From positions 123,155 to 187,154 of the forward strand of contig MFEY01000007.1 in NCBI GenBank assembly GCA_001780035.1: DNA of 64,000 nt. The letters run 5' to 3'. Below are positions 797 through 45,348 of the stretch, piece after piece. A model generated the notes under the pieces. That model was not told the origin of the DNA, made no database searches, and worked only from the letters and a program-made list of their open reading frames with translations. The DNA comes from Candidatus Doudnabacteria bacterium RIFCSPHIGHO2_12_FULL_48_16. Its GTDB lineage: Bacteria > Patescibacteriota > Doudnabacteria > UBA920 > O2-02-FULL-48-8. Every line of letters begins with the position of its first letter. Positions within the stretch are counted from its first letter, which is position 1. A program made the position numbers and the translations under genes.

Positions 797-3013
797 CTAA
801 TGTCTTGGTTTGAAGCCGCCGCGGCCGCCGTGATCATCACGTCGGGGTGGTCTCGGTCGGTCATACGGCCGTTCATCGATGGTGCCGCCTTCAGGGCGCG
901 GGATCAAAATTTTGTGCGACAGGTTGATGCGACCCATGTGGTCGATTTCAATTACCTTCACTTCCAGTTCATCGCCGAGTTTGACCACATCTTCGACTCT
1001 GCCGACGCGCTGCCATGCCAGTTCCGAAATATGGCACATGCCGTCTTTGCCGCCGGCCAGTTCGACAAAAGCGCCGAAGTCCATGATACGGACCACTTTA
1101 CCTTTGAACACTTCGCCGATCTTAATGTCGCGGGTTAAGTTATGGATAATCTCCAAAGCCTTTTTCATACCTTCGGCATTGTTGGAAGTGACGAGGACCA
1201 AACCGGAGTCTTCGATATCGATCTTCACGCCCGTGTCGGCAATGATCTTGTTGATGATCTTACCGCCAGAACCGATGACATCGCGGATTTTTTCCGGATT
1301 GATCTGCATGGTTTCAATGCGCGGGGCGAGCGGTGACATTTCTGCTCGAGGAGCAGCAATGGTTTTCTTCATCACGTCCAGAATATGCATGCGGCCATCT
1401 TTGGCTTGCTTTAAGGCTTGATCCAAAATTTCCACCGTGAGGCCTTTGGTCTTCACATCCATCTGCATGGCAGTAATGCCCTTTTCCGAGCCCGTGACTT
1501 TGAAGTCCATGTCGCCGTTGGAATCTTCAATGCCCTGAATGTCGGTGAGCACTTTAAATTTGCCAGTTGGCACATCGAGCACCAAACCCATGGCCACGCC
1601 GCCAATCATGGTTTCAATCGGCACCCCCGCATCCATCAGGGCCAAGGTTGAACCGCAAGTGGAAGCCATGGAGGTCGAGCCATTGGAACCCAAGGCTTCG
1701 GAAACCAATCGTAATGTGTAAGGAAACTTTTCTTTCGGCGGCATCACGACTTCCACGGCGCGTTCAGCCAAAGCACCATGCCCGACTTCCCGCCGGCCTG
1801 GGCCGCGGATCGGCGCGACTTCGCCCACGGAGTAACCGGGAAAATTGTAGTGATGGATATAGCGCTTGACTGTCCCATCCACGGTAAAGTCTTCCATGCC
1901 ATCCAGAATCTGGGCATCGCCAGATGATCCTAACGTCACTGTGGTTAGAATCTGAGTTTCACCGCGATTAAACAGGGCGGAGCCGTGAGTGCGAGGCAGG
2001 ATCCCCACTTCGCAGGACACTGGCCGGGTCACGGTCAGTTTGCGTTCATCGACGCGCAGCTCTTTGTCCAAAATATTGGCGCGCACCACTTTCTTGGTCA
2101 GCTTATCGAGAGCCAAGTTCGTATGTTGTTTCAAATTCAGTTCAGTATTTTCCTTAAAGGCTTCGGCAATGTGCACTTGAGTTTCTTCGCGCACGGCATC
2201 AGCCTGCTTTTCTCGAACTTCTTTCGGGAACGTGCCATACAAAGCTGTCTGGAGTTTATCTTTGGCAAAGTTTTCCACGGCGTCCAAAATCTTCTCATCC
2301 GCCAAGACGCGCTTAACTTCCGCTTTGGGCTCCCCGACCTGCTTAATCAGATCTTCCTGCATTTTAATCAAAGCGGCCAGATGCGGCTGGGCAAACTTGA
2401 TGGCGGCGATCATATCGTCTTCGGTGATCTGCTTCGCCCCGGCTTCCACCATCAAAATATGGTTGGTCGTGCCGGAAACAACCAAGTCGAGATCGCCAGC
2501 TTCGCGTTCTTTGTAAGAAGCGTTCAGGATAAACTTGCCGTCCACGCGGCCCACCCGCACCGCGGCAATGGGGCCGTCAAACGGAATGCGGGAGATGCAC
2601 AAGGCGGCGGAGGAAGCGGTTACGGCCAAGACATCCGGATCATTGACTTCATCCACAGAAAAAATCGTGGCCACGACCTGCACGTCGTTGCGCATGCCGT
2701 CCGGAAACAAAGGACGAATGGTGCGGTCAATCAGCCGACCCGAAAGAATCGCTTCATCCGTGGCACGGCCTTCGCGCTTAATAAACCGCGAGCCTTTGAT
2801 CTTGCCTGAGGCATAAAGCCGTTCCTCATAATCAACCAAGAGCGGGAAATAATCCATGCCCTCGCGCAAACCCTTACTCATGACGGCCGTGGCTAAGACC
2901 ACGGTGTCGCCGAGCTTGGCCAAGACCGAACCATCGGCCTGCAAGGCCAAAACCCCGGTTTCGAAGGAAATCTTCGTGCCGGCTAAATCTTGTTCTACTT
3001 TCGCTTTCTTCAT
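797..3013 (-). CDS. pnp: polynucleotide phosphorylase/polyadenylase
   Basis: 738 aa; two RNase PH-like cores, 'GSRFIKREGRATDEAILSGRLIDRTIRPLF', KH and S1 C-terminal region, basic RG-rich tail. Confidence 0.9.
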   Translation of the reverse strand: MKKAKVEQDLAGTKISFETGVLALQADGSVLAKLGDTVVLATAVMSKGLREGMDYFPLLVDYEERLYASGKIKGSRFIKREGRATDEAILSGRLIDRTIRPLFPDGMRNDVQVVATIFSVDEVNDPDVLAVTASSAALCISRIPFDGPIAAVRVGRVDGKFILNASYKEREAGDLDLVVSGTTNHILMVEAGAKQITEDDMIAAIKFAQPHLAALIKMQEDLIKQVGEPKAEVKRVLADEKILDAVENFAKDKLQTALYGTFPKEVREKQADAVREETQVHIAEAFKENTELNLKQHTNLALDKLTKKVVRANILDKELRVDERKLTVTRPVSCEVGILPRTHGSALFNRGETQILTTVTLGSSGDAQILDGMEDFTVDGTVKRYIHHYNFPGYSVGEVAPIRGPGRREVGHGALAERAVEVVMPPKEKFPYTLRLVSEALGSNGSTSMASTCGSTLALMDAGVPIETMIGGVAMGLVLDVPTGKFKVLTDIQGIEDSNGDMDFKVTGSEKGITAMQMDVKTKGLTVEILDQALKQAKDGRMHILDVMKKTIAAPRAEMSPLAPRIETMQINPEKIRDVIGSGGKIINKIIADTGVKIDIEDSGLVLVTSNNAEGMKKALEIIHNLTRDIKIGEVFKGKVVRIMDFGAFVELAGGKDGMCHISELAWQRVGRVEDVVKLGDELEVKVIEIDHMGRINLSHKILIPRPEGGTIDERPYDRPRPPRRDDHGGRGGFKPRH

Positions 3014-26454: not shown

Positions 26455-26878
26455 CTACTCCTTCCGCGCGAGCCGTTCTTTTATTTTTTCCACTACATCA
26501 CTTAAATTCCAATCAGATTTTATCAGGTAATACGCCGGCTCGTTTTTCGCAACTCCTTGCATGATTTTTTCTTCGCTGGCCGAAAGATTAGTCAAAAGTA
26601 TGATAGAAACAGTTTTTCCATATTGTCCTCCTTCTGCTCGTAGCTTGTCCATCATTTCCAGCCCACTCATCACGGGCATGAGGATATCCAGGAGGATCAG
26701 ATCGGGTTTTTCTCGGAGCGCTATTTCCAAACCTTCCTTGCCATTGGTTGCCGCAAGCATAAAAAAACCCTGATCGCGCAATTCTTCGACATATAGCTTG
26801 CGGATAATCTCCTCATCTTCGACAATTAGAATTTTTATCTTACCCTGTACCGAGCTTTGCTCTGGTACCGGGGGATTT

Positions 26879-29481: not shown

Positions 29482-29862
29482 TCAAATGAGGATTTTTTTT
29501 ATTTGCTCCAGTACGTCTTTAATACTCCAATCGCTCTTCACTAGAAAATACAAAGGCTCATCTGTAATCACTCCTTTTATAATATTTTCATTGGCGCTTA
29601 AGTTGGTAAGCAGTATAATAGGCACCTTCCTCCCCCAGTCATCTGCCCTCAGTTTCTTCATCATGTCCATGCCGTTCATGACCGGCATGACAATATCAAG
29701 CAGGATCAGATCGGGTTTTTCCCGGAGCGCGGTTTCCAGGCCTTCCTGGCCATTTGTGGCTGTTGCAACAGAAAACCCTTTATCCCGTAACTCATCGGCA
29801 TATGGTTTACGGATCATTTCCTCATCTTCCACTATTAGAATTTTTTTTGGCTGTTCTGACAT
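29482..29862 (-). CDS. single-domain response regulator (CheY-like receiver), paralog of 26455-26892
   Basis: 126 aa; 'KILIVEDEEMIRKPY...DLILLDIVMPVMNGMDMMKKL', near-identical motifs to the other receiver. Confidence 0.8.
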   Translation of the reverse strand: MSEQPKKILIVEDEEMIRKPYADELRDKGFSVATATNGQEGLETALREKPDLILLDIVMPVMNGMDMMKKLRADDWGRKVPIILLTNLSANENIIKGVITDEPLYFLVKSDWSIKDVLEQIKKILI

Positions 29863-31918: not shown

Positions 31919-34177
31919 TTATTGTGAAGTTTCGGCCGGACTAGTCGGTTGTTCAACAACTACTTCTACAGGCACTGGTGTTGGCTCAGCTGCAACCGGG
32001 TCTGTATCCTCTGGCGACGCTGTCGGTGTTGGTGTGCCCTCCATAGCATCTGGCGGCGTGTCCGCCGCCGAAGCTGCCTCCTCCGCACCCGGAACTTCAG
32101 CAGAAGCGGAGGCATCTGACGAAACCTCGGGAGTCGATGCTTCTTCATCGGCTAGAGGTGCTGTAATTATAGCAGGAGTAATATTGGCATTTTCTAAAAG
32201 CGAATTCAACTGGTCGCCATTAATACAAACTTCACTGCCGTCAGATTTCTTAACGCAGATTTGCTCAGTGTGAATTTTTTCGGCAAACAGTTCATAAAAG
32301 TATCCGCGGATGGCGGTCACGCGCGCGGCCACAAAATCAGTGAAAAATTGCATGCCATCCATAATTTTTTTAGCAATAAAAGCGATTGGATCATGAGCGG
32401 GTTCAGACTGAACACTGCTGACGAGCGTAGAAAGACCATTATCCGATTCATCAGCATTGGCTTTTGGTGTTAGGTCCCCCAAAAGTATTGCTTCTTCGCC
32501 CAAGTCAAAGTTCTTCACGAAGGCCACAACAATGCCTATACCATCGCCATCATATGCAGACATTGCTTGACCAATTACTGAACCCGTATTTTTTGCCTTC
32601 ATAGCAACACCGGGTATCGAAGAAGACGTAAGATAATCGCCCGGCGCAATAGCGCCATTTTCGGTAATTATTTTCACTGGCAGGCGTCCGGCAAGAGCAA
32701 CAATCACTGGTACTCCTTCATGAGCCCCGACAGTATCGCCGATGACAATGCCCGGCTTCGTTGAGACAATACCAATAACTTCATCATGCAACATAGCTCG
32801 GCGCACGCCGCTTGGCAAACTTGAATCCAGAGCAACGACTGTTCCCGGCACAAGCGATAAGTCTTTCGCGTAGTAAACCTCGCCAACATCAGCACCACCG
32901 CTGATGCGAAATGCCGAGAGACTGCTTCCACGATGAACGGTTGTCGCATTGCTGTTTGAGGTGTTTTGAGCCCACTGCAATCGTACCGTCCCCGCAGTAG
33001 ACCCATTTGCTATCGTCCCAGACAAATAGAGTGGGTCGTTTGCAGTGGCGGATCCAGCGGTTACAGTGATTGCTCCGCCACATGCGGTACTGCCGGCGCC
33101 GCTTGCAACGTCAACGCCCCCGCCGGCGTAATCACAGGTTGCGCCGGTTGGAGCAGTAACGGCAAGTTGGATGTCCGGCGTGGCAAGCGTGGTATAGAGT
33201 AAATTGAATTGAAAAACCCATATCTCATTCGCGCCAATGGCAAATAATAATTCATCATCGTCCTGCAAAACGGCATTGCTCGTAAGGCTTTCGTCCGCAG
33301 ACTTTCTAACATCTACCGCGTACTGGCCAAGTTCACATACTATATTACCGGCACTATCGGTTCCGAGATTACGACAACTGGTCAAGTTCCCAAGTGTAAG
33401 ACCGGCGAATGTTGGCGATGCACTCGTGGTCAACGTTTGTCCAGTATCAAAAGCAAGCTGGCTGTTGCCGATGGAATCAGCAGTAATAGAAAGAGAAGCG
33501 GCAGAATTTTCACTGCCTGATCCGGAAACAGTAATTTGTGATGAGCCACCAATGGTCGCGATATAATTGCCAGTCGTATGCGTACCGAGCGTAATGAGAT
33601 CACTCAAAGATGTTGCCCCCGTTCCACCATTACCAATAGCCAGTGCCGTACCTGACCAATTGCTGTTGTTAATGCTAGAGAGTACTGCTAATGAACCAAG
33701 TCCTAAATTAGTTCTGGCGGTCGAAGCACTAGCTAAATCAGAAAGATTGTTGGATGGATTGAGTGGAGTGTAGCCAAGCGCCGATTGTTTGTTGTTAAAA
33801 GTATCCCAGTCGGTAGAGGTCAAAAGACCCCGCGAAGTTGCGGCAGCGCTTGGAATATTAAATGTGTGAGTACTGCCGGTGGAATCAATGTTAAAATCAG
33901 TGCCTGATATTCCGGTGGCAAATGTTTGAGTGGTCAGAGTCAGGCCATTCAAACTAAATACACTAACTCCGCAATTAGTATCAGTCGGAAGACACGCCGG
34001 ATTCAAAGTTTCGCCCGGCTGGTAGAGGATTGCCAATGCTGGCCGTGATATGGACAAGATAAAAAGCACGACCAAAAGAAAAACCGGCAAAAATGTTTGA
34101 TATTTTAGTTTCAGAATATTCAATCTCATACGTATCGAAAAAAGAAAGACCCAAACGAAAAATCGTTTGGGTCTCAA
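31919..34177 (-). CDS. large secreted surface protein with tail-fibre-like Ser/Thr/Gly repeats and acidic C-terminal tail
   Basis: 752 aa; signal peptide; 'TARTNLGLGSLA' tail-fibre-like motif; low-complexity Pro/Glu/Ala/Thr tail. Confidence 0.5.
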   Translation of the reverse strand: MRPKRFFVWVFLFSIRMRLNILKLKYQTFLPVFLLVVLFILSISRPALAILYQPGETLNPACLPTDTNCGVSVFSLNGLTLTTQTFATGISGTDFNIDSTGSTHTFNIPSAAATSRGLLTSTDWDTFNNKQSALGYTPLNPSNNLSDLASASTARTNLGLGSLAVLSSINNSNWSGTALAIGNGGTGATSLSDLITLGTHTTGNYIATIGGSSQITVSGSGSENSAASLSITADSIGNSQLAFDTGQTLTTSASPTFAGLTLGNLTSCRNLGTDSAGNIVCELGQYAVDVRKSADESLTSNAVLQDDDELLFAIGANEIWVFQFNLLYTTLATPDIQLAVTAPTGATCDYAGGGVDVASGAGSTACGGAITVTAGSATANDPLYLSGTIANGSTAGTVRLQWAQNTSNSNATTVHRGSSLSAFRISGGADVGEVYYAKDLSLVPGTVVALDSSLPSGVRRAMLHDEVIGIVSTKPGIVIGDTVGAHEGVPVIVALAGRLPVKIITENGAIAPGDYLTSSSIPGVAMKAKNTGSVIGQAMSAYDGDGIGIVVAFVKNFDLGEEAILLGDLTPKANADESDNGLSTLVSSVQSEPAHDPIAFIAKKIMDGMQFFTDFVAARVTAIRGYFYELFAEKIHTEQICVKKSDGSEVCINGDQLNSLLENANITPAIITAPLADEEASTPEVSSDASASAEVPGAEEAASAADTPPDAMEGTPTPTASPEDTDPVAAEPTPVPVEVVVEQPTSPAETSQ

Positions 34178-34274: not shown

Positions 34275-35078
34275 ATGTCAATGAAATTGATACCAAAAAA
34301 TAAAAACAGTATCGCTTCCTTTGTCCTTATCGAACACCGCTGTAGTTGCGGCAAACTCCTTTTTAAGGGCATGCTTTTGTCGAGCGCCCTTGAGATTAAG
34401 TGCAAAGGCTGCGGAAAAATAAAAATCGTGGGCAATCAAAGTATCGACACAGAAAATGAAAATCAATACTCAATGCTCTTTGACGAGGCAAATAATATAA
34501 TCGATGTCAGTCCGTCAGCTATAAAAATTTTAGGCTTCAGCAAACAAGAACTGCTCGCAATGAAAGCACGACGTATAAAATTTTTGTTTAAAATGCATGA
34601 TAGTGACCGACTTTGGAAGACAGCCAGAAACTTGGGCTTTGAAACTTTTACTTTCGAAACAGTTCATCTGAAAAAAAACGGCGAGGTTTCGCCAGTACAA
34701 GCCCAGGTCAAATTTATAACAAGTAGCAATCAAGCTTTGGCGCTCGTGGTATTCAACGGTTTACAATCACCAAGTCCGCAAGTAACAGATTCGACCTGCG
34801 AATTCGTAGCTGATGTAAATCTTGAAGGAATTTATACCTATGTGAATCGGGCGTTGGCAACACTACTTGAATACTCTGCGGAAGAAATGCTGGGCAAATC
34901 TATGTTTGAATTTTATCCAATAGATGAGCGCAAAAAAATAGAAAAGATATTTTTCAGCCACCTCAAATCAAAGCAGTCATTTAAACTAAAGGATTCCCAA
35001 TTTGAAAGCTACTTCGTGACAAATGTTAATGATTGGGGCGGAGTTAGGGGTTATCATATACTGCGGTGGGCTAAGTGA
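34275..35078 (+). CDS. zinc-ribbon (Com-like) plus tandem PAS domain protein
   Basis: 267 aa; 'CSCGKLLF...CKGCGKIK' four-Cys ribbon at N-terminus followed by two PAS-like segments. Confidence 0.5.
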   Translation: MSMKLIPKNKNSIASFVLIEHRCSCGKLLFKGMLLSSALEIKCKGCGKIKIVGNQSIDTENENQYSMLFDEANNIIDVSPSAIKILGFSKQELLAMKARRIKFLFKMHDSDRLWKTARNLGFETFTFETVHLKKNGEVSPVQAQVKFITSSNQALALVVFNGLQSPSPQVTDSTCEFVADVNLEGIYTYVNRALATLLEYSAEEMLGKSMFEFYPIDERKKIEKIFFSHLKSKQSFKLKDSQFESYFVTNVNDWGGVRGYHILRWAK

Positions 35079-35290
35079 ATTTTTCTAGGAGACGATTTTT
35101 GTTCTTACAAAATACTTAGAAACCCTATATTTATAAGACAATCTCCACAAACAAAAAATCGTCCAGCAGGCGATTTTTTAAGTTTCTATAAATTATCAAA
35201 AACCTTGGAAATCGCTATATCGGTTCTATGTCCTGTAAGGGGGTATGCTTTTTAAAAATTAGAACCGCTATCGAATTTGCTGGGAAATAC

Positions 35291-35325
35291 TGACGCACCT
35301 CGGTCTCACTAACTGGGGTGGGCTA
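35291..35325 (-). repeat. tRNA-His 3'-end-like fragment (att-like), copy 0
   Basis: 'ctggggtgggctacggggaacgatccc' versus tRNA-His 3' end 'cttggggtgcctgatgggaatcgaaccc'; same orientation. Confidence 0.55.
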
Positions 35326-35417
35326 CGGGGAACGATCCCGATACCTTCTGCGCCACAATTTTCTTTTGTTCGGGAAATGGTACGAATTACATATTTAATT
35401 ACGTAATTAACATAGTC

Positions 35418-35708
35418 TTAGATTTTTTTAAATTCTTCTTGATTAATCTCCTCCAGTAATTCTAAAGTTGCCTTTACAGAAGGATTAGCGGTGTTTATGA
35501 GAATTAACCTTCGGTCAAAACTCTTCAACAATGGACTCAAAAACTCATCTCCCCAGGAAGGTGAGAATGTAATAACTCCCTCGAAATCTAATTCTAGGTT
35601 CTCATTTACATCTAAGGTTGTTATCTGGGATTGTAGCGCAGCAAAAGCTTCGCGGCCATTTTGCCGGGAGGTCAGTGTTGTCCCAAATTTTTTCAAATCT
35701 ATTTTCAT
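35418..35708 (-). CDS. DUF4325 (STAS-like) domain protein
   Basis: 96 aa; 'MKIDLKKFGTTLTSRQNGREA...' typical DUF4325 composition; immediately downstream of a GHKL ATPase gene. Confidence 0.5.
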   Translation of the reverse strand: MKIDLKKFGTTLTSRQNGREAFAALQSQITTLDVNENLELDFEGVITFSPSWGDEFLSPLLKSFDRRLILINTANPSVKATLELLEEINQEEFKKI

Positions 35709-35715
35709 AATATTT

Positions 35716-36438
35716 CTAAAATGTGATTAATGCTAAACACCCGCGAAATGATTCTATGCTCGGTTTTAAATCCAAGACATCGCTATCTTTAGTTAATACA
35801 AGCTCTGCGTTACCTGTCTGAAACAAAAGTCCAATAGGATTTTCTGCGACTATTTTCCGCACGAATTTCAGACCATTACCCCGACTCTCAGGCGCCCGGC
35901 CCGACAATATTTCAGTAAAGGCCACTCTCAATGCTTCTTCGTCTGTATTCAACTCTGGTTTTACTCTTTTCAAAGTAGTAAAAACACCCAAACCCCTATC
36001 CGCCAAAACAATATTTCTCTTGTGGATGTCATAGGCAAAAAATATTCCCGGAGTATCTGGCCAATTTCCTAAGTTATGATCAAAGGAATTGTTTCCGATT
36101 TCTCCGGCCACTGCCACAAGCAACGGGAATATAGGCGATAATTCTTTTACTCCGCCAAGGAAATCTTGCATCTGTATCAGCTTGGTCTGAAACACCGCGC
36201 TATTGGAACAATAAAATTTTGAAGGTATCTCGAAACTTTTTAATACCCAATCTTTGGCCAAACCAAAAAGATCATTCAAAAAAAGTTCTATCTGTGATCT
36301 GTTATACAAACGATAACCGGCATCTGACGTCTTCACAGGACTCAATTTACCTTTTTTATCCCAACGTCGGAGAGTATCGATCGAAACCCCCAATATTTCT
36401 GCGGCTTCGCTTATTGTAATAAGGTCTTGTTCTGCCAT
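35716..36438 (-). CDS. MerR-family HTH fused to a GHKL (anti-sigma-kinase-like) ATPase domain
   Basis: 240 aa; 'ITISEAAEILGVSIDTLRRWDKKGKL' MerR HTH; C-terminal N-box 'GEIGNNSFDH', G1 'DRGLGV', G2 'SRGNGLKFV'. Confidence 0.55.
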   Translation of the reverse strand: MAEQDLITISEAAEILGVSIDTLRRWDKKGKLSPVKTSDAGYRLYNRSQIELFLNDLFGLAKDWVLKSFEIPSKFYCSNSAVFQTKLIQMQDFLGGVKELSPIFPLLVAVAGEIGNNSFDHNLGNWPDTPGIFFAYDIHKRNIVLADRGLGVFTTLKRVKPELNTDEEALRVAFTEILSGRAPESRGNGLKFVRKIVAENPIGLLFQTGNAELVLTKDSDVLDLKPSIESFRGCLALITF

Positions 36439-36541
36439 AATTATTCAACTATAACATACTCTTAAACCCTATGCAAACTTTTTAAAACCCTATGCAACCC
36501 CCTATAAATAAGAGAGTTAGGGACCCACTTGGGTAGCCCTA

Positions 36542-36585
36542 ACTGGGGTCGCATCGCATAGTGAAGGATGCGAGAACTAAATTTC
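36542..36585 (-). repeat. tRNA-His 3'-end-like fragment (att-like), copy 1
   Basis: 'ctggggtcgcatcgcatagtgaaggatgcgagaact'; shares 'tggggt' and 'ggatg..agaac' with the tRNA 3' end and copy 2. Confidence 0.5.
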
Positions 36586-37312: not shown

Positions 37313-37855
37313 TTAATGTTTAGTGTCTATTCTTTTTAAAAACTTTCTCAGTTGTGGTGGAACACTTTTGGAAGTATCTATTGTAAAATGAGGAAAATTA
37401 ACAGGCTCATATATTTTTTTTATTTTCAAATGAGCTATCCAACCAACTCCCTTACCTTGTAAAAATCTTTTAGAAACTCGTGCTCGTAATATTTTGTCAG
37501 GACAATAAATATATAGTACATGATAAGGAACTCCGTGCTTTTTAGCTATTTGTATAATCAAATCCCGCTGTTTCTGCTTAGAAAAAGCACCATCAATAAT
37601 AATGCTACCACCTGCTACTAAAGTATAATCAGTTAATAATGCAAAGGCATTGTAGCAGATTGCCAATTCATCCATCGTGGGTGGTTTATCCTTATTGACG
37701 AAAGATGGATTGGGAAGGAGTTTTTTTAAGGTAGAATCTACAGAAACGACAGGGGCACCTACTATCTTACTAAGTAGTTTGGCCGTGGTTGTTTTACCAG
37801 CTCCGACTTGGCCACAGATAATAAATAGCTCCGGTTTTAAAATAGTCTTTCTCAT
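37313..37855 (-). CDS. P-loop kinase (AAA_33/zeta-toxin-like fold)
   Basis: 180 aa; Walker A 'GQVGAGKTTT'; small kinase architecture. Confidence 0.6.
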   Translation of the reverse strand: MRKTILKPELFIICGQVGAGKTTTAKLLSKIVGAPVVSVDSTLKKLLPNPSFVNKDKPPTMDELAICYNAFALLTDYTLVAGGSIIIDGAFSKQKQRDLIIQIAKKHGVPYHVLYIYCPDKILRARVSKRFLQGKGVGWIAHLKIKKIYEPVNFPHFTIDTSKSVPPQLRKFLKRIDTKH

Positions 37856-38453: not shown

Positions 38454-38456
38454 ATC

Positions 38457-38486
38457 CTTGGGGTGCACGATGGGAATTCCGACGCT
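38457..38486 (-). repeat. partial duplicate of the tRNA-His 3' end (att-like), copy 4
   Basis: 'cttggggtgcacgatgggaattccgacgc' versus tRNA 'cttggggtgcctgatgggaatcgaaccc' (21/23 identical), 84 nt from the tRNA. Confidence 0.65.
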
Positions 38487-38542: not shown

Positions 38543-38617
38543 TGGGGTGCCTGATGGGAATCGAACCCACGTGACCACTGCCACAGAGTGGCGTTCTACC
38601 ATTGAACTACAGGCACC
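38543..38617 (-). tRNA. tRNA-His (GTG) with encoded G-1
   Basis: cloverleaf: acceptor GTGCCTG/CAGGCAC, extra 5' G pairing with discriminator C, anticodon loop CTGTGGC, T-loop TTCGATT, CCA encoded. Confidence 0.85.
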
Positions 38618-41112: not shown

Positions 41113-42501
41113 TTATAACTGCGCCAAGCGTTCCGCCAGCCCCAGATAGTTTTCCGGGGTGATTTTTTTGAGCTCGGCTTTGATCTTAGGCTTTATGTCC
41201 AGTTGGTCGATAAATTTATAAATATCCTTGAGGACAAGGGTTTTGCCGCGGGTTAATTCTTTTAATTTTTCATACGGCATTCTTTTCCCTTCGCGGCGCA
41301 GGATGGTCTGAATGGCTTCCGCAATCACCTCCGGATGCTTATTTAAATCTTCCCGCATCTTGGTTTTGTTCACCACAATCCGGGCAAGTTGGTTGTTCAA
41401 ATATTTAAAACCTATCAAGCTGTGCCCGAATGCGGTACCTATACTTCGCAAAACCGTAGAATCGGATAAATCTCTTTGTAGGCGTGAAATGGGAAGCTTG
41501 CGCGCAAAAAATTCAAATAAAGCATTAGCTGTTCCTAAATTTCCTTCGCTGTTTTCCAAAAACCAGGGGTTAATTTTATGCGGCATGGTCGAGGAGCCGA
41601 CCTCGCCTGCCACAGACTGCTGGGCGATCCAATCGTCGCTGATATAACGCCACACATCCTGATTGAAACCGATTAAAATAAAATTGATTCTCCTTAGCAT
41701 ATCAAACAATTCAACAAAGCTGTCATAGGGCTCTATTTGCGTCGTAAACAAATTGATCTCCATTTTTACCTTCCTGAATTGAGCTATTCCCTTGATGAAT
41801 TTTTTGGAAAAATTTACCCAGTCAATCCGTGGATATGCCGCATGGAGCGCGTTGTAATTGCCGGTTGCGCCATTTAATTTTGCCAAAAGAACATGGTTTT
41901 TGATTTGGCCTATTTGGCGACTCAATCTTTCTTCAAATATCTTGAATTCCTTGCCGAAGGTCGTAGGCGAGGCCGGTTGCCCGTGAGTGCGGGCAAGCAT
42001 CGGGATATTTTTATTATCCTTAGCCAGTTTGCCGATTTTTTTGGCAATTTCTTCCAGTGCCGGTAAATAAACTTCTCTCATACTTTCCCCTATCATAAGC
42101 GTATAAGCGGTATGCGTGGCATCCCAGGTGGTTAGGCCAAAATGCGTGAACTCCAAAATATCTTTTAGGCTTGTTTTTCCGAGTTTTTCTTTTATAAAGT
42201 ATTCCATCGCCTTAAAATCGTGATTGGTGGCTTTTATTTCCTTGTATCCCTTAAGTTCAATGTCACTAATAATTTGCGCGTCTTTTATTGAAAAGTTTTC
42301 ATATAAATTTCTTAACAACTTTTTTTCTTTTGCACTTAATTTTCGCATTCCTACCCCTCTTGTTTCTGATAAAGCAATCAAATATTCACACTCCATAAGA
42401 ACCTTGTATTTCATAGAGGCTGACTCGCTGAAATAAGGAGCTAGGTCCTTCGTGTATTTTTCGTATCGTCCGTCTAATGGCGAAATTGAATTTAACGGCA
42501 T
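41113..42501 (-). CDS. purB: adenylosuccinate lyase
   Basis: 462 aa; 'SPLDGRYEKYTKDLAPYFSE', fumarate-lyase signature region 'GSSTMPHKINP'. Confidence 0.85.
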   Translation of the reverse strand: MPLNSISPLDGRYEKYTKDLAPYFSESASMKYKVLMECEYLIALSETRGVGMRKLSAKEKKLLRNLYENFSIKDAQIISDIELKGYKEIKATNHDFKAMEYFIKEKLGKTSLKDILEFTHFGLTTWDATHTAYTLMIGESMREVYLPALEEIAKKIGKLAKDNKNIPMLARTHGQPASPTTFGKEFKIFEERLSRQIGQIKNHVLLAKLNGATGNYNALHAAYPRIDWVNFSKKFIKGIAQFRKVKMEINLFTTQIEPYDSFVELFDMLRRINFILIGFNQDVWRYISDDWIAQQSVAGEVGSSTMPHKINPWFLENSEGNLGTANALFEFFARKLPISRLQRDLSDSTVLRSIGTAFGHSLIGFKYLNNQLARIVVNKTKMREDLNKHPEVIAEAIQTILRREGKRMPYEKLKELTRGKTLVLKDIYKFIDQLDIKPKIKAELKKITPENYLGLAERLAQL

Positions 42502-42510
42502 AATTTTATC

Positions 42511-43482
42511 TTATCTTTGTATTTCGTATTTTTTTAAACTATTTTTAATTCTTTGCTCTATTGGTTCTTGAATATTTGCCTCAAATTTTCTACCGAGCAT
42601 TTTCTCATATATTTCTATATAGCGGGAAGCGAGCTCAACTATCATATCTGGAGGCACTTCCGGCAAAACCTTGTCTTTATACGGGTCACATTTACCCTTA
42701 AACCATAAGCGCAAAAACTCTTTATCAAAATATTCTGGTTCCTCTCCATTATTGAACCTCTCCTCATAACTTTTTAGCATCCACCAACGTGCGCTGTCAG
42801 GCGTGTGTATCTCATCAATAAGGACAAGGTTGTTATTTTCATCTAAACCAAATTCATATTTTGTATCAACCATAATAAATCCTCGATCGGCTGATATTTC
42901 CTGGCCTCTTTTGAAAAGTGCCAATGATGTGTCTGAAACTTTTTTTAGTATATCTGTTGTCAATAGTCCTTCATCAACAATCTCTTTCGGGGTCAAACTT
43001 CTGTCGTGCTCTTCAAGTTTGGTAGTAAAGGTTAAGACGGTCTCTTTAAGTTTCTCATTTTTACGGAGCCCTTCGGGTAAAATAAAATTTCCAAAATCTC
43101 TTTTTCCTTTTTGATAATGGGTCCAGAGCGAGGTATTAGTAGATCCTGTAATATATGCCCTTGGAATTATTTCTATGGGGACAATTTTATATTTCTTTGC
43201 CACTAAAACATTAGGATCAGGGTATTCTAAAACATGATTAGGAATAATATCTTTTGTTGCATCAAACCAGTATCTGCTGGTTTCAGTTAGAATTTGCCCC
43301 TTAAAAGGTATGTGCGCGATTATTCGATCAAATGAAGAATGACGATCGGTCGAAATCAAAATTAGTTTGTCGCCCAAATCATAAATGTCTCTGACCTTAC
43401 CCGTCCTTTTTGGACCAAGCGCTGACAGATTGGTCTCCCTTAAAACATTATTAATATTTTGAGCGATGATTTTTTTTTCCAT
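42511..43482 (-). CDS. purC: phosphoribosylaminoimidazole-succinocarboxamide synthase (SAICAR synthetase)
   Basis: 323 aa; 'GKVRDIYDLGDKLILISTDRHSSFD', 'DTKYEFG'. Confidence 0.85.
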   Translation of the reverse strand: MEKKIIAQNINNVLRETNLSALGPKRTGKVRDIYDLGDKLILISTDRHSSFDRIIAHIPFKGQILTETSRYWFDATKDIIPNHVLEYPDPNVLVAKKYKIVPIEIIPRAYITGSTNTSLWTHYQKGKRDFGNFILPEGLRKNEKLKETVLTFTTKLEEHDRSLTPKEIVDEGLLTTDILKKVSDTSLALFKRGQEISADRGFIMVDTKYEFGLDENNNLVLIDEIHTPDSARWWMLKSYEERFNNGEEPEYFDKEFLRLWFKGKCDPYKDKVLPEVPPDMIVELASRYIEIYEKMLGRKFEANIQEPIEQRIKNSLKKYEIQR

Positions 43483-43487
43483 AAAAT

Positions 43488-44507
43488 TTATTTTAAATTT
43501 ACCTGACCAGTTCCCTTAATAACTTTACCTATTTCATAAGTATCTATACCAAATTTTTGTAAGTGTTTTTTTATTTCTTCCGCATAATTTTCTTTTACCA
43601 CGGCAGTTATGCCCACCCCCATATTAAAAGTTCGGAACATGTCAGCGTCTTCCAATTTACCGAATTTTTTCAAAATTCGGAATATTTGTAAAACTTTTAT
43701 CTTTTTTACATCAATAACGGCGTTTAAATTTTTTGGCAAAATTCGATTTAAATTTTCTTTTATGCCACCACCTGTTATATGCGCTAAACCTACCAATCCT
43801 TTATTTCTAAATAAACCCTTCAAACTATTATAATAACATCGGTGGGGTATCAATACATTTTTAATAAAAAATTTTCCGCCTATTTTCTCTTTAAGTATTT
43901 TAGGGTTTTGTTCTATTATTTTTCTAACCAACGAAATACCGTTTGTGTGTAGGCCATTTGATGCAAGGGCAAGCACCGTATCGCCTTCTTTTATTTTTGA
44001 ACCATCAATAATTAGATCTTTTTCAACAACACCCACAACATTTGCTGTAAGTATATAAGTTCCATTGGGTACAACTCCAGGTTGTTCAGAGGTCTCTCCT
44101 CCCGTTAACAAGCAGCCATTTTCTTTACACGCTTTAGTTAACGAAGAAACAATCTTTAAAATAACATCTTTTTCCATTTTTCCACAAACAATGCAATCTT
44201 GGACAGAAAGCGGATGGGCGCCCATTACAATAGCATCATTTATCAAATGACCCACAAGATCATAACAAAGCGTCTCTATACTGTTATTTTCTAGGGCTAA
44301 TTTTTGTTTTGTCCCAGGTTCTTCTGTTTTAAAAACTAAAACCGGATGCTTATATTCAGGAAAAGTTGCATCATAAAGCGTCGCAAAAGCCCCAACTCTA
44401 TTTAGTACTTTTTTATTTTGCACTCTCATAACTTTTGCTATATTGCTTTTGGTGCTGTTGGCAACGTCAATATCAACTCCTGAATTTTTATAAGATAATT
44501 TTTGCAT
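43488..44507 (-). CDS. purM: phosphoribosylformylglycinamidine cyclo-ligase (AIR synthetase)
   Basis: 339 aa; 'YKNSGVDIDVANSTKSNI', PurM N- and C-domains. Confidence 0.85.
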   Translation of the reverse strand: MQKLSYKNSGVDIDVANSTKSNIAKVMRVQNKKVLNRVGAFATLYDATFPEYKHPVLVFKTEEPGTKQKLALENNSIETLCYDLVGHLINDAIVMGAHPLSVQDCIVCGKMEKDVILKIVSSLTKACKENGCLLTGGETSEQPGVVPNGTYILTANVVGVVEKDLIIDGSKIKEGDTVLALASNGLHTNGISLVRKIIEQNPKILKEKIGGKFFIKNVLIPHRCYYNSLKGLFRNKGLVGLAHITGGGIKENLNRILPKNLNAVIDVKKIKVLQIFRILKKFGKLEDADMFRTFNMGVGITAVVKENYAEEIKKHLQKFGIDTYEIGKVIKGTGQVNLK

Positions 44508-44508
44508 A

Positions 44509-45348
44509 TTATTTATTCATATAGTCCATTCCGACTGTTTCAAAAATCTGTTTAAAGTTCTTTAAAATTGTTTTCTTGCCATTATCAAAACACACTATGA
44601 ATTGAAAATAGGCACTTGGAAGATATGGTTTGTTCAAATCTTCTAGCCTTGATTCTACAATAAAAGCGCAAGTTCTAGGGATCTCAAAATTTTCAGTATC
44701 TATCAGGTGTATACGCTTGTTCTTCAGGATTTCTTTTATTTTTTTAAAAGTATCTCCTGTAATAATATTACCTTCTGATGACCCCGTAATTGAATGTCCA
44801 AGGTTTATAGATTGATTAGGGTCAGAACTTATTGTCACCCATTTAGTCTTTCTAAATTTGTTTTGAAATAAATTTTTAGCGAATAAGCACAAATCAGAAA
44901 TTTTTATTCCCACCTCTACGTGTTTAGCAATTTCAAATATACTAGTGTAAACATTTTTTAAATGCTGTTTTATTTCTTCGTTGTCTCCTCTGTATATTGT
45001 AAACCCTATATCTCCCATCATTCCGGTCTTTCTATCGACTGGGGAAAAATATATGCTTCCCACCGTTTCTTTTTTAAAAATTGATGTTTCGCTCGGCCAA
45101 TAGATTGGATTCCTTAAGCTGTCGTATTTGAGGCGCTCAAAAGGACTTTCGTCAAATAAAACACTTGCCCCTCCTGGTGGCGGGTCATACCAACCATTTG
45201 GGAAAATGCTTTCATAATTAGACATTTTAGAAACAATTAACTTATGTATCTCAATTTCAGAAACATTATCAATACTCGACAAAGATTGAGCAGCTATTTC
45301 TGCAGAGATTTTTCTAGTTTGAATTACTGCATCAATCAAACTTATCAT
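44509..45348 (-). CDS. conserved hypothetical protein embedded in the pur operon
   Basis: 279 aa; tightly packed between purM (2-nt gap) and purE (2-nt gap); no recognisable motif. Confidence 0.45.
   Translation of the reverse strand: MISLIDAVIQTRKISAEIAAQSLSSIDNVSEIEIHKLIVSKMSNYESIFPNGWYDPPPGGASVLFDESPFERLKYDSLRNPIYWPSETSIFKKETVGSIYFSPVDRKTGMMGDIGFTIYRGDNEEIKQHLKNVYTSIFEIAKHVEVGIKISDLCLFAKNLFQNKFRKTKWVTISSDPNQSINLGHSITGSSEGNIITGDTFKKIKEILKNKRIHLIDTENFEIPRTCAFIVESRLEDLNKPYLPSAYFQFIVCFDNGKKTILKNFKQIFETVGMDYMNK

What the first reader, a model, noticed from the sequence alone, without database searches (positions are those of the whole stretch)
35418..36438. Cargo pair: MerR-HTH fused to a GHKL/anti-sigma-kinase-like ATPase, followed by a DUF4325 STAS-like protein
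An N-terminal MerR DNA-binding domain is fused to a GHKL ATPase carrying N, G1 and G2 boxes, with a STAS-like DUF4325 gene immediately downstream. This looks like a self-contained partner-switching module (kinase/anti-sigma plus antagonist) wired directly to DNA binding. It is carried as cargo in the tRNA-His cassette array, and its function is unknown. Such compact sensor-effector pairs in mobile hotspots are candidates for phage-defence or abortive-infection regulators.
Basis: partly seen in the sequence, partly recalled or inferred. Interest (0 to 1): 0.6.

Follow-up and report, generated by a model that had tools for sequence, protein, structure and literature searches.

The report
Self-regulating kinase and STAS partner cassette
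A tiny two-gene unit found in hundreds of ultra-small (CPR) bacteria encodes a DNA-binding protein kinase that appears to switch off its own promoter, plus the small protein it most likely phosphorylates; it is a stripped-down, stand-alone relative of kinase/substrate pairs recently shown to control bacterial immune genes, and what it acts on is unknown.

Summary

The closest relatives by sequence are not anti-sigma factors. They are CapK/VapK kinases and CapS/VapS STAS substrates (EMBO J 2026; hhalign E about 5e-6 and 5e-5). A keeps the catalytic Asn (N117 = CapK N218). B keeps an invariant Ser51 at the CapS phospho-site. A lacks CapK's internal STAS domain, B has no output domain, and no effector gene is linked.

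Three findings are new here:
- A is preceded by direct repeats (TTGCATAGGGTTT twice, 21 nt apart) that overlap its -35 element. These repeats occur in 70 of 82 related loci.
- HTH residue 21 covaries with the operator base, so A most likely autoregulates.
- The pair is always together (78 of 78 testable loci), is present in at least 551 mostly CPR genomes, and in 18 of 68 loci sits in a ~1.1-1.25 kb unit flanked by target-derived direct repeats.

A defence role is not shown. This is a new variant of a known kind.

The parts
35716..36438 (-). Gene A: 240-aa HTH + GHKL kinase-like protein (stop TAG at 35716-35718).
   Evidence: ORF. It is 100% identical to a Candidatus Doudnabacteria hypothetical protein and has more than 5000 homologues.
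36274..36423 (-). MerR-type (BldC/excisionase-like) winged HTH, residues 6-55. Residue D21 (36376-36378) is the first residue of the recognition helix.
36130..36270 (-). Helical N-terminal extension of the kinase domain, residues 57-103, with W64, Y76, C77, F83 and Q84 invariant among close homologues.
   Evidence: Alignments, AF2 helices 57-67 and 80-95. From residue 83 onwards it aligns with VapK 123-150.
35719..36129 (-). GHKL (Bergerat-fold) kinase domain, residues 104-240. N box at 36073-36102 (EIGNNSFDHN, catalytic N117 at 36088-36090). G1 at 35986-36000 (DRGLG). G2 at 35866-35883 (RGNGLK). Flexible ATP lid at 35878-35898.
35418..35708 (-). Gene B: 96-aa single-domain STAS (DUF4325) protein. 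The probable phospho-acceptor is S51 (35556-35558); S49 is the alternative.
36485..36497 (-). Distal operator repeat TTGCATAGGGTTT.
   Evidence: Exact 13-mer. There are only two exact copies in the 64-kb window. The motif is conserved upstream of A in 70 of 82 loci.
36464..36476 (-). Proximal operator repeat TTGCATAGGGTTT, 21 nt from the distal copy. Its TTGCAT is the -35 hexamer.
36448..36477 (-). Promoter-like site TTTGCA-18-TATAGT (TG-extended -10), ending 10 nt upstream of the A start codon.
   Evidence: The same layout is seen in homologous loci.
35153..35179 (.). Hairpin flanked by an A-run and a T-run (AAAAAATCGTCCAGCAGGCGATTTTTT). It is a likely bidirectional terminator shared by the A-B operon and the convergent PAS gene.
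   Evidence: called on the + strand. The symmetry is read directly from the sequence.
36522..36549 (-). Upstream flanking direct repeat ACCCCAGTTAGGGCTACCCAAGTGGGTC.
   Evidence: (D13). It is 22/28 identical to the downstream copy. On its own it is marginal (about the 95th percentile of controls), but its position matches the cassette boundaries in other loci.
35292..35319 (-). Downstream flanking direct repeat ACCCCAGTTAGTGAGACCGAGGTGCGTC. On the coding strand it is directly preceded (35320-35345) by a degenerate tRNA-His 3'-half, whose CCCCA end overlaps the start of the repeat.
   Evidence: The interior between the two repeats is 1202 nt, within the 1070-1250 nt range seen in 13 of the 14 other loci examined.

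Best explanation
A and B form a minimal, stand-alone member of the CapK/CapS-VapK/VapS class of GHKL serine kinase plus STAS substrate pairs.

Shown:
- A has an ATP-binding Bergerat-fold domain homologous to CapK and VapK, with the catalytic Glu/Asn and the G1/G2 boxes intact.
- B is a bare STAS (DUF4325) domain with an invariant Ser at the N-terminus of helix 2.
- The two genes are inseparable across hundreds of genomes.

Inferred by homology: A binds B and transfers the ATP gamma-phosphate to B Ser51 (possibly Ser49), which switches what B is bound to.

Strongly supported by comparative evidence: A's N-terminal BldC/excisionase-like MerR-type HTH binds the two direct repeats (21 nt apart) that overlap the -35 element of the operon's own promoter. 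The operon would therefore set its own level, much as CapS and many antitoxins do.

The HTH is an optional add-on. Other family members carry XRE or winged-helix domains, or none. The conserved working core is therefore kinase + STAS, and it must act in trans on an unlinked cellular partner that is not identified.

The whole unit (operators, promoter, A and B; about 1.1-1.25 kb) behaves as an insertable cassette in Patescibacteria genomes.
For: Folds:

Homology to experimentally characterised proteins (sequences taken from PMC13373217 supplements):
- A profile against CapK: E 5.3e-6, 37% identity over 112 columns. A N117 aligns with CapK N218, whose N218A mutation strongly reduces CapS phosphorylation.
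- A-family profile against VapK: E 4.2e-6 over 144 columns.
- B profile against CapS: E 8.3e-5, with B S51 aligned to the CapS phospho-acceptor S54.
- B profile against VapS: E 4.9e-5. VapS itself is PF14213 at 62.7 bits.

Conservation: P50-S51-W52 are invariant in 81 of 81 B sequences. The N/G1/G2 boxes are invariant across 32-56 A sequences.

Linkage: B follows A in 78 of 78 testable loci. This also holds for the HTH-less kinases.

Autoregulation:
- TG[CT]ATAG occurs at 14.1 per kb in the forward orientation within 150 nt upstream of A, against 0.055 per kb elsewhere (174 forward, 2 reverse). 70 of 82 loci have at least 2 copies, mostly 20-22 nt apart, and the proximal copy supplies the -35.
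- The window has only the two exact copies.
- In metagenomes, 20 of 30 exact operator pairs sit 22-29 nt upstream of an A gene.
- A residue 21 tracks the operator: D with TGCATAG (49 of 50), Q/M/A/T with TGTATAG (25), N with TGGGTAG (2), S/T with TGAGTAG (3). This residue has the highest mutual information of all 240 positions.
- The one HTH-less locus with intergenic sequence upstream of the kinase (L120) lacks the operators; in the other (L122) the gene starts 8 nt after recO.

Cassette: 18 of 68 loci have flanking direct repeats above every one of 204 controls. The interior is 1070-1250 nt in 13 of the 14 other loci examined (1361 nt in L031). The pair is also found inserted between def and fmt, and between recO and radC.
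Against: - No biochemical data exist for this family. Phosphotransfer, the acceptor residue (S51 or S49; the VapS alignment is ambiguous by one residue) and DNA binding are all inferred.
- A itself gets no Pfam GHKL hit. The hhalign probabilities are moderate (61-87%).
- A lacks the internal STAS domain and the Trp (CapK W68) that form the ssDNA-sensing groove in CapK and VapK, so the activating signal cannot be transferred by analogy.
- B has no wHTH and no inhibitory C-terminal tail, and no effector gene is linked. The explanation therefore leaves the biological output open.
- An autoregulatory loop with no known output is incomplete as a mechanism.
- No empty site was found for the window's copy. 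The window's own flanking repeat is only marginally above chance.
Confidence: 0.6

Rival explanations
1. Classic partner-switching anti-sigma module. A (like SpoIIAB/RsbW) sequesters a sigma factor. Unphosphorylated B (like SpoIIAA/RsbV) pulls A off. A inactivates B by phosphorylation.
Against: By sequence, A and B are detectably related to CapK/VapK and CapS/VapS, which are not anti-sigma factors. The PDB sequence and profile searches found no anti-sigma factor. No sigma factor or PP2C phosphatase is among the ten window neighbours scanned. Only 2 of 150 neighbours elsewhere carry Sigma70_r4. The family fuses the kinase to DNA-binding domains, which anti-sigma kinases do not do.
Confidence: 0.12
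2. Selfish toxin-antitoxin (addiction) cassette of the enzymatic, type VII-like kind. A would be an antitoxin-style protein, with an N-terminal operator-binding domain and a C-terminal neutralising kinase, that keeps B harmless by phosphorylation. Alternatively, B would be the antidote of a toxic kinase A.
For: - It is a tight two-gene operon with operator repeats over its own promoter.
- The first gene has the antitoxin-like layout of a DNA-binding domain followed by a partner-binding domain.
- Genomic context is variable.
- Flanking direct repeats occur in 18 of 68 loci, and insertions occur between housekeeping genes.
- Two copies are found in one MAG (L060 and L070).
- The related VapKSC is a toxin-antitoxin system.
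Against: Neither protein has a known toxin domain. Both are unusually well conserved: 52-90% identity across Patescibacteria, with DNA only ~73% identical where protein is ~80%, which is atypical for fast-evolving TA pairs. The copy is fixed in all near-identical contigs from many samples. There are no toxicity data.
Confidence: 0.2
3. DNA-damage or phage-infection sensor in the manner of CapK/VapK. Nucleic acid, such as ssDNA, activates the kinase, and phosphorylated B releases an unlinked defence or stress effector.
For: - Homology to CapK/VapK, which are activated by ssDNA.
- The basic hairpin H139-K140-R141 of A aligns with the CapK K237-K239 region implicated in ssDNA contact.
- One HTH-less pair lies between recO and radC, downstream of mfd.
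- Some loci are next to R-M genes, Fic or AbiEi.
Against: A lacks the STAS domain and the Trp that build the ssDNA groove. No effector is linked. There is no PADLOC match beyond the HTH. The family is absent from viral contigs. No neighbour family recurs, and many neighbours are housekeeping genes.
Confidence: 0.15
4. Non-catalytic regulator. A is a transcription factor whose GHKL domain only senses ATP/ADP, and B is a stoichiometric co-repressor that is never phosphorylated.
For: The only identified DNA targets are the operon's own operators. GHKL domains can act as nucleotide-dependent clamps. There is no phosphatase nearby.
Against: The catalytic Glu/Asn and the acceptor-position Ser are invariant. 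HTH-less kinase+STAS pairs persist without any DNA-binding function. CapK/CapS and VapK/VapS also lack a phosphatase, yet signal by phosphorylation.
Confidence: 0.08

Closest known systems
CapK-CapS (Chambers et al., EMBO J 2026, PMC13373217)
   Same: - Gene order is kinase then STAS protein.
- The kinase has an N-terminal HTH and a homologous GHKL domain (hhalign E 5.3e-6; A N117 = CapK N218).
- The substrate STAS domain carries a conserved Ser at the same aligned position (B S51 = CapS S54).
- No phosphatase is present.
- The system autoregulates its own promoter.
   Different: - CapK has a STAS domain between the HTH and GHKL domains, which forms the ssDNA-sensing groove with W68. A has none.
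- In CapKS the DNA-binding repressor is the substrate (CapS, STAS-wHTH, binding palindromes). Here the HTH is on the kinase, the operators are direct repeats, and B has no DNA-binding domain.
- CapKS sits upstream of immune operons (348 of 443 cases). This pair has no conserved neighbour.
- CapKS was described in Enterobacter and Vibrio proteins. This family is almost confined to Patescibacteria.
VapK-VapS-VapC (same paper)
   Same: B and VapS are both PF14213 DUF4325 proteins (VapS 62.7 bits; B 25.4 bits) and align from residue 1 (E 4.9e-5). The A family aligns to the VapK kinase domain over 144 columns (E 4.2e-6), including the shared NSF(D/E)H N-box signature.
   Different: There is no VapC/PIN gene. 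B ends at residue 96 and lacks VapS's C-terminal inhibitory helix (residues 94-116). VapK has an N-terminal STAS domain and no HTH.
SpoIIAB-SpoIIAA and RsbW-RsbV anti-sigma partner-switching pairs
   Different: There is no detectable sequence similarity and no linked sigma factor or PP2C phosphatase. A carries an HTH and a ~45-residue helical extension.
SiaB-SiaC (Pseudomonas aeruginosa)
   Different: SiaC is DUF1987, not DUF4325. The Sia system also has a PP2C phosphatase (SiaA) and a diguanylate cyclase (SiaD) in the same operon (own knowledge).
BldC / excisionase-type MerR-like DNA-binding domains
   Different: BldC is a stand-alone ~70-aa protein. The NCBIfam BldC model is matched far below its cut-off (20.4 against 77 bits).

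Membership tests
GHKL / Bergerat-fold ATPase-kinase superfamily | N box (E...N), G1 (DxGxG) and G2 (GxGxG-like) nucleotide-binding motifs. | tested here: met
   E113/N117, D147-x-G149-x-G151 and G187-N-G189-L are invariant or nearly so across diverse members.
GHKL / Bergerat-fold ATPase-kinase superfamily | Alpha/beta sandwich fold with a flexible ATP lid. | tested here: met
Pfam HATPase_c_2 (PF13581) | Score above the Pfam gathering threshold. | tested here: not met
   No hit for A even at E <= 1. Only weak sub-threshold hits in 10 of 32 relatives.
CapK-type kinase | GHKL domain homologous to CapK, with the catalytic Asn. | tested here: met
   hhalign E 5.3e-6, probability 86%. N117 aligns to N218.
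CapK-type kinase | HTH-STAS-GHKL architecture, with an internal STAS domain and W68 forming the ssDNA groove. | tested here: not met
   A has 240 aa against 368 in CapK. Residues 57-103 are two helices, not a STAS domain.
CapK-type kinase | Activation by single-stranded DNA. | not testable with these tools
   Requires a kinase assay.
CapKS regulatory system | The substrate is a STAS-wHTH repressor, and the pair lies upstream of an immune operon. | tested here: not met
   B is a bare 96-aa STAS protein. Downstream genes differ in every locus.
VapKSC toxin-antitoxin | DUF4325 STAS protein with a conserved Ser/Thr next to the kinase gene. | tested here: met
   PF14213 hit for both B and VapS. hhalign E 4.9e-5. 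S51 is invariant.
VapKSC toxin-antitoxin | Third gene encoding a VapC/PIN toxin, and a C-terminal inhibitory helix on the STAS protein. | tested here: not met
   No PIN family appears among the families listed for the neighbours scanned (the census lists only the 25 commonest families). B ends at residue 96.
STAS domain / anti-sigma antagonist fold | Four-stranded beta sheet with flanking helices, and a Ser/Thr at the N-terminus of helix 2. | tested here: met
Partner-switching anti-sigma module | Linked sigma factor target and PP2C (SpoIIE/RsbU-type) phosphatase. | tested here: not met
   Neither is among the ten window neighbours. Sigma70_r4 occurs in only 2 of 150 neighbours elsewhere. The rest of the genome could not be searched.
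Canonical MerR-family regulator | N-terminal winged HTH of the MerR type. | tested here: met
   PF00376 and PF13411 score above threshold.
Canonical MerR-family regulator | Coiled-coil dimerisation helix plus effector domain, binding a palindrome inside a 19-20 bp promoter spacer. | tested here: not met
   All MerR-family equivalog models score far below their cut-offs. The operators are direct repeats over and upstream of the -35, and the spacer is 17-18 nt.
Type II/VII toxin-antitoxin module | Two-gene operon autoregulated through operators at its promoter. | tested here: met
   (comparative evidence only).
Type II/VII toxin-antitoxin module | One product is toxic and is neutralised by the other. 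| not testable with these tools
   Needs expression experiments.
Known anti-phage defence systems (PADLOC-DB 2.0) | Match to a defence-system protein model. | tested here: not met
   Only the generic HTH matches mad1 and an MTase N-terminus. B matches nothing.

The most novel reading that the evidence does not exclude
The ~1.2-kb unit (operators, promoter, HTH-kinase and STAS) is an autonomous selfish element of Patescibacteria. On this reading it is a kinase-based addiction module that spreads by an undescribed insertion mechanism which duplicates 20-140 nt of target sequence, often a terminator or the ribosome-binding region of the next gene, with no recombinase of its own. Its extreme conservation would reflect targeting of a universal host component.
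Probability: 0.15. Interest if true: 0.8.

Novelty: new variant of a known kind. Interest (0 to 1): 0.55.

Why it matters
GHKL-kinase/STAS pairs outside sigma-factor control were shown only in 2026 to be signal-activated switches for bacterial immune operons and a toxin. This family is the simplest form so far: a kinase without the sensor STAS domain, a substrate without any output domain, and no linked effector.

It is nevertheless one of the better conserved accessory gene pairs in Patescibacteria. It occurs in at least 551 species-level genomes and thousands of sequence clusters. These organisms have tiny genomes and few known regulators.

The family offers three things:
- A compact, testable protein-DNA recognition code (residue 21 against the operator base).
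- A minimal system for asking what the kinase senses and what an unadorned STAS protein controls.
- A case of small cassettes with long target duplications whose mobility mechanism is unknown.

If the partner turns out to be a core host machine, it would be a new regulatory or conflict node in CPR biology. If not, it is still a clean new architecture in a newly defined family.

Tried and rejected
- Sequence searches of the C-terminal domain of A and of B against PDB chains, both as single sequences and as profiles, found only HTH matches or noise.
- NCBIfam and PADLOC gave nothing beyond the HTH.
- Rfam found only the four tRNAs and nothing in the intergenic regions around the pair.
- The viral contig scan found no relative.
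- The search for trans targets of the operator found none. The 64-kb window has no further copy. Of 30 metagenomic loci with the exact operator pair, the 10 without a detectable A gene are truncated contigs, degenerate cassettes (L090, with an IS nearby), simple repeats or unclear.
- The empty-site search through the flanking PAS and Zeta-like proteins failed. Every contig carries the pair.
- The neighbour census for a conserved third gene or defence enrichment showed no family above 3 of 150 with Pfam. The 'mad2' hits in PADLOC (4 of 150) are DNA methyltransferases.
- The idea that all short (~190 aa) family members lack an HTH was partly rejected. L008 is really full length, but L120 and L122 are genuinely HTH-less.
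- Recent horizontal transfer as the cause of the high protein identity was rejected. DNA identity is only ~73%.
- The literature gave no description of this family under DUF4325, partner-switching with Patescibacteria, or CPR with STAS.
Full report
**What is there**

Window 35418-36438 holds two minus-strand genes. Gene A is 35716-36438 (240 aa). Gene B is 35418-35708 (96 aa). Only 7 nt separate them.

A is 100% identical to a hypothetical protein of a Candidatus Doudnabacteria MAG (RIFCSPLOWO2_02_FULL). It has more than 5000 homologues at E <= 0.001. The best 120 are all about 240 aa long and 77-100% identical, and they carry names from several Patescibacteria lineages.

The region from 34 to 38 kb has low G+C (0.37-0.44, against about 0.5 around it). 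It ends at a tRNA-His gene at 38543-38616.

**Domains and folds**

A residues 6-55 are a MerR-type HTH (PF00376 E 1.4e-14). The rest of A has no hit in Pfam, NCBIfam, PADLOC or PDB sequences.

Ten of 32 diverse relatives touch HATPase_c_2 weakly.

**The closest characterised relatives**

A literature search found Chambers et al. (EMBO J 2026, PMC13373217).
- CapK (HTH-STAS-GHKL) is activated by ssDNA and phosphorylates CapS (STAS-wHTH) on S54. This breaks the CapS dimer and de-represses a downstream immune operon.
- VapK (STAS-GHKL) phosphorylates the antitoxin VapS on S48 and releases the PIN toxin VapC.

I took the CapK, CapS, VapS and VapK sequences from the paper's supplementary files and compared them with my family profiles.
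- A against CapK: E 5.3e-6, 37% identity over 112 columns. A E113/N117/D120/H121 align with CapK E214/N218/D221/H222. N218A strongly reduces CapS phosphorylation in that paper.
- The diverse A profile against VapK: E 4.2e-6 over 144 columns, covering A 83-235 and VapK 123-283.
- B against CapS: E 8.3e-5, with B S51 on CapS S54.
- B against VapS: E 4.9e-5 from residue 1. VapS itself is a strong DUF4325 member at 62.7 bits.

This also explains an older remark that one VapC clade is coupled to DUF4325 genes.

In 81 B sequences, P50-S51-W52 never vary. S49 is Ser or Thr in 76 of them. The VapS alignment is ambiguous by one residue, so S51 is the likely acceptor and S49 the alternative.

A and B therefore belong to this kinase/STAS class by homology, but with a different build:
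- A has no internal STAS domain. Residues 57-103 form two helices.
- B has neither a wHTH nor the VapS C-terminal tail.
- There is no PIN gene.

**Genomic survey**

A scan of one genome per GTDB species found at least 551 genomes with a relative. Nearly all are Patescibacteria.

In the 80 fetched loci, B lies directly downstream of A in all 78 that have room (gaps of -3 to 58 nt, with one of 229 nt). The identities of A and B fall in parallel. Two of the fetched loci (L060 and L070) come from the same MAG, so a genome can carry more than one copy.

DNA identity is only about 73% where protein identity is about 80%. The conservation therefore reflects purifying selection rather than recent transfer.

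The neighbours differ from locus to locus. In a census of 150 flanking ORFs from 38 loci, no Pfam family occurs more than three times. The list mixes housekeeping genes (DnaK, MreB, FolD, sigma-70) with a few methyltransferases, Fic, AbiEi, GIY-YIG and STAND proteins. The PADLOC 'mad2' hits are methyltransferases.

There is no relative in IMG/VR viral contigs. I see no basis for calling the pair a defence system, and no conserved third component.

**Autoregulation (new here)**

Upstream of A, the window has two exact copies of TTGCATAGGGTTT, 21 nt apart (36485-36497 and 36464-36476, minus strand). The TTGCAT of the proximal copy serves as the -35 of a TTTGCA-18-TATAGT promoter-like site. There is no other exact copy in the 64 kb.

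The same arrangement recurs across the family:
- TG[CT]ATAG occurs 174 times in the forward and 2 times in the reverse orientation in the 150 nt upstream of 82 A genes. That is 14.1 per kb, against 0.055 per kb in the remaining 760 kb.
- 70 of 82 loci have at least two copies, usually 20-22 nt apart, or 41-44 nt apart when they flank the promoter.
- Of 30 metagenomic loci with the exact operator pair, 20 have an A gene 22-29 nt downstream. The rest are truncated, degenerate or chance matches.

The most telling result is covariation. A residue 21, the first residue of the recognition helix, tracks the operator sequence:

| Residue 21 | Operator | Loci |
|---|---|---|
| Asp | TGCATAG | 49 of 50 |
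| Gln/Met/Ala/Thr | TGTATAG | 25 |
| Asn | TGGGTAG | 2 |
| Ser/Thr | TGAGTAG | 3 |

Residue 21 has the highest mutual information with the operator base of all 240 positions (1.18 bits; the next is 0.66). Relatedness inflates such counts. Even so, several different substitutions paired with different bases are hard to explain except by direct recognition.

The HTH resembles BldC and excisionase-type MerR-like domains. From my own knowledge, these bind direct repeats head-to-tail. The HTH is not a canonical MerR activator.

**The HTH is optional**

Family members carry XRE or winged-helix N-termini instead. One '188-aa' member is really full length.

Two members are genuinely HTH-less. L120 is inserted between def and fmt and has no TGCATAG operators. 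L122 lies between recO and radC, downstream of mfd, with no room for an HTH. Each still has a DUF4325 gene directly downstream.

The conserved working core is therefore kinase + STAS. It must act on something unlinked. This parallels the finding that deleting CapK's HTH had no effect on signalling.

**Cassette behaviour (new here; mechanism unexplained)**

In 18 of 68 loci, the sequence 60-500 nt upstream of A and the 500 nt downstream of B share a direct repeat that scores above all 204 cross-locus controls (20-140 nt).

In the 14 other loci examined, the repeats bracket an interior of 1070-1250 nt in 13 (1361 nt in L031). The interior comprises the operators, the promoter, A and B. The right-hand copy begins 0-25 nt after the B stop codon in most of them.

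The repeats differ between loci. They often look like a terminator hairpin or the ribosome-binding region of the next gene, so they derive from the target. No recombinase is inside the unit.

In the window, the equivalent repeat is ACCCCAGTTAG... (36522-36549 and 35292-35319; 22 of 28 identical; interior 1202 nt). Taken alone it is only marginal. On the coding strand, the downstream copy is directly preceded by a degenerate tRNA-His 3'-half (35320-35345) whose CCCCA end overlaps the start of the repeat. Another partial tRNA-His end lies at 38456-38486.

A tRNA lies within about 600 nt of the pair in roughly 9 of 60 other loci, but the tRNAs differ. No empty site was found for the window's copy.

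The more general statement is that the pair is itself a small insertable unit.

**Mechanism, with shown and inferred steps**

Shown by computation:
- the folds;
- intact nucleotide-binding and catalytic motifs;
- homology to CapK/VapK and CapS/VapS;
- strict A-B linkage;
- an operator array at the promoter, with protein-DNA covariation.

Inferred:
- A binds B and phosphorylates Ser51 (or Ser49).
- A occupies its operators and limits transcription of the operon.
- Phosphorylation changes what B binds.

Unknown:
- the activating signal, because the CapK ssDNA groove is missing, although the basic hairpin H139-K140-R141 aligns with CapK K237-K239;
- the trans partner;
- whether the unit serves the host or itself.

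**Rivals**

The rival readings are a classic anti-sigma partner switch, a type VII-like toxin-antitoxin cassette, a CapK-like damage or phage sensor with an unlinked effector, and a non-catalytic regulator. Each is listed with its evidence. None is excluded, and the toxin-antitoxin reading is the strongest of them.

**Verdict**

The finding is real, and its anatomy was read correctly. Its family is now identifiable, and within that family it is a new minimal architecture rather than a new kind of system. The defence interpretation is unsupported. Interest is moderate. It rests on four things: the family's abundance and conservation in Patescibacteria, the clean recognition code, the missing output, and the unexplained cassette insertions.

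Noticed in passing
L006, L011, L012, L016, L031, L069, L071, L072, L085, L088 and others; window 36522-36549 / 35292-35319: The A-B operon is bracketed by target-derived direct repeats of 20-140 nt in 18 of 68 loci. The interior is 1070-1250 nt in 13 of the 14 other loci examined (1361 nt in L031). There is no recombinase inside, and the repeats are often terminator hairpins or the RBS region of the next gene. The insertion mechanism is unknown.
   Followed up: partly
window 38456-38486 and 35320-35345 (minus strand): Partial copies of the tRNA-His 3' end lie downstream of the intact tRNA-His gene (38543-38616). The second copy looks like a diverged 3' half starting at the anticodon loop. This is consistent with past integrations at this tRNA, but no integrase gene is in the island.
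   Followed up: partly
window 37313-37855 (-): A 180-aa P-loop kinase matches AAA_33 (E 3e-17) and Zeta_toxin (E 1.4e-12). It lies in the same low-GC island, between ORFs of unknown function, with no obvious epsilon-type antitoxin.
   Followed up: no
window 34275-35078 (+): A 267-aa protein has a Cys-rich N-terminus (weak Com-like zinc ribbon) and two PAS domains but no output domain. It is convergent with the A-B operon and shares the hairpin at 35153-35179 as a likely bidirectional terminator.
   Followed up: no
window 31919-34177 (-): A 752-aa secreted-looking protein has a weak Peptidase_G2 (intramolecular chaperone autoproteolysis, tailspike-like) match and an acidic, Pro/Thr-rich C-terminus.
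   Followed up: no
window 26633-26836 and 29642-29845: A 204-nt direct repeat at 76% identity, with copies 3 kb apart (family D1). It has not been examined.
   Followed up: no
window 42000-45000: A block of very low G+C (0.33-0.36) with strong negative GC and AT skew lies between regions of 0.45-0.59 G+C. It may be another acquired segment.
   Followed up: no
L122 3734-4622; L120 4001-4873: These are genuinely HTH-less kinase + DUF4325 pairs. One is wedged between recO and radC just downstream of mfd (a DNA-repair neighbourhood). The other splits the normally adjacent def and fmt genes and lacks the TGCATAG operators.
   Followed up: partly
L090 (motif at 2480-2512, minus strand): An exact operator pair and promoter are followed directly by the start of a B-like gene (MKIELKKFG...) with no A gene. 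IS-type transposase ORFs are next to it, so this is apparently a degraded cassette.
   Followed up: partly
L063 (895-kb contig labelled Prolixibacteraceae), L034 (Legionellales), L043 (Gammaproteobacteria), L047 and L076 (archaeal labels): A few copies sit on contigs assigned outside Patescibacteria. The short contigs may be binning errors. The 895-kb contig could be a real transfer to Bacteroidota.
   Followed up: no
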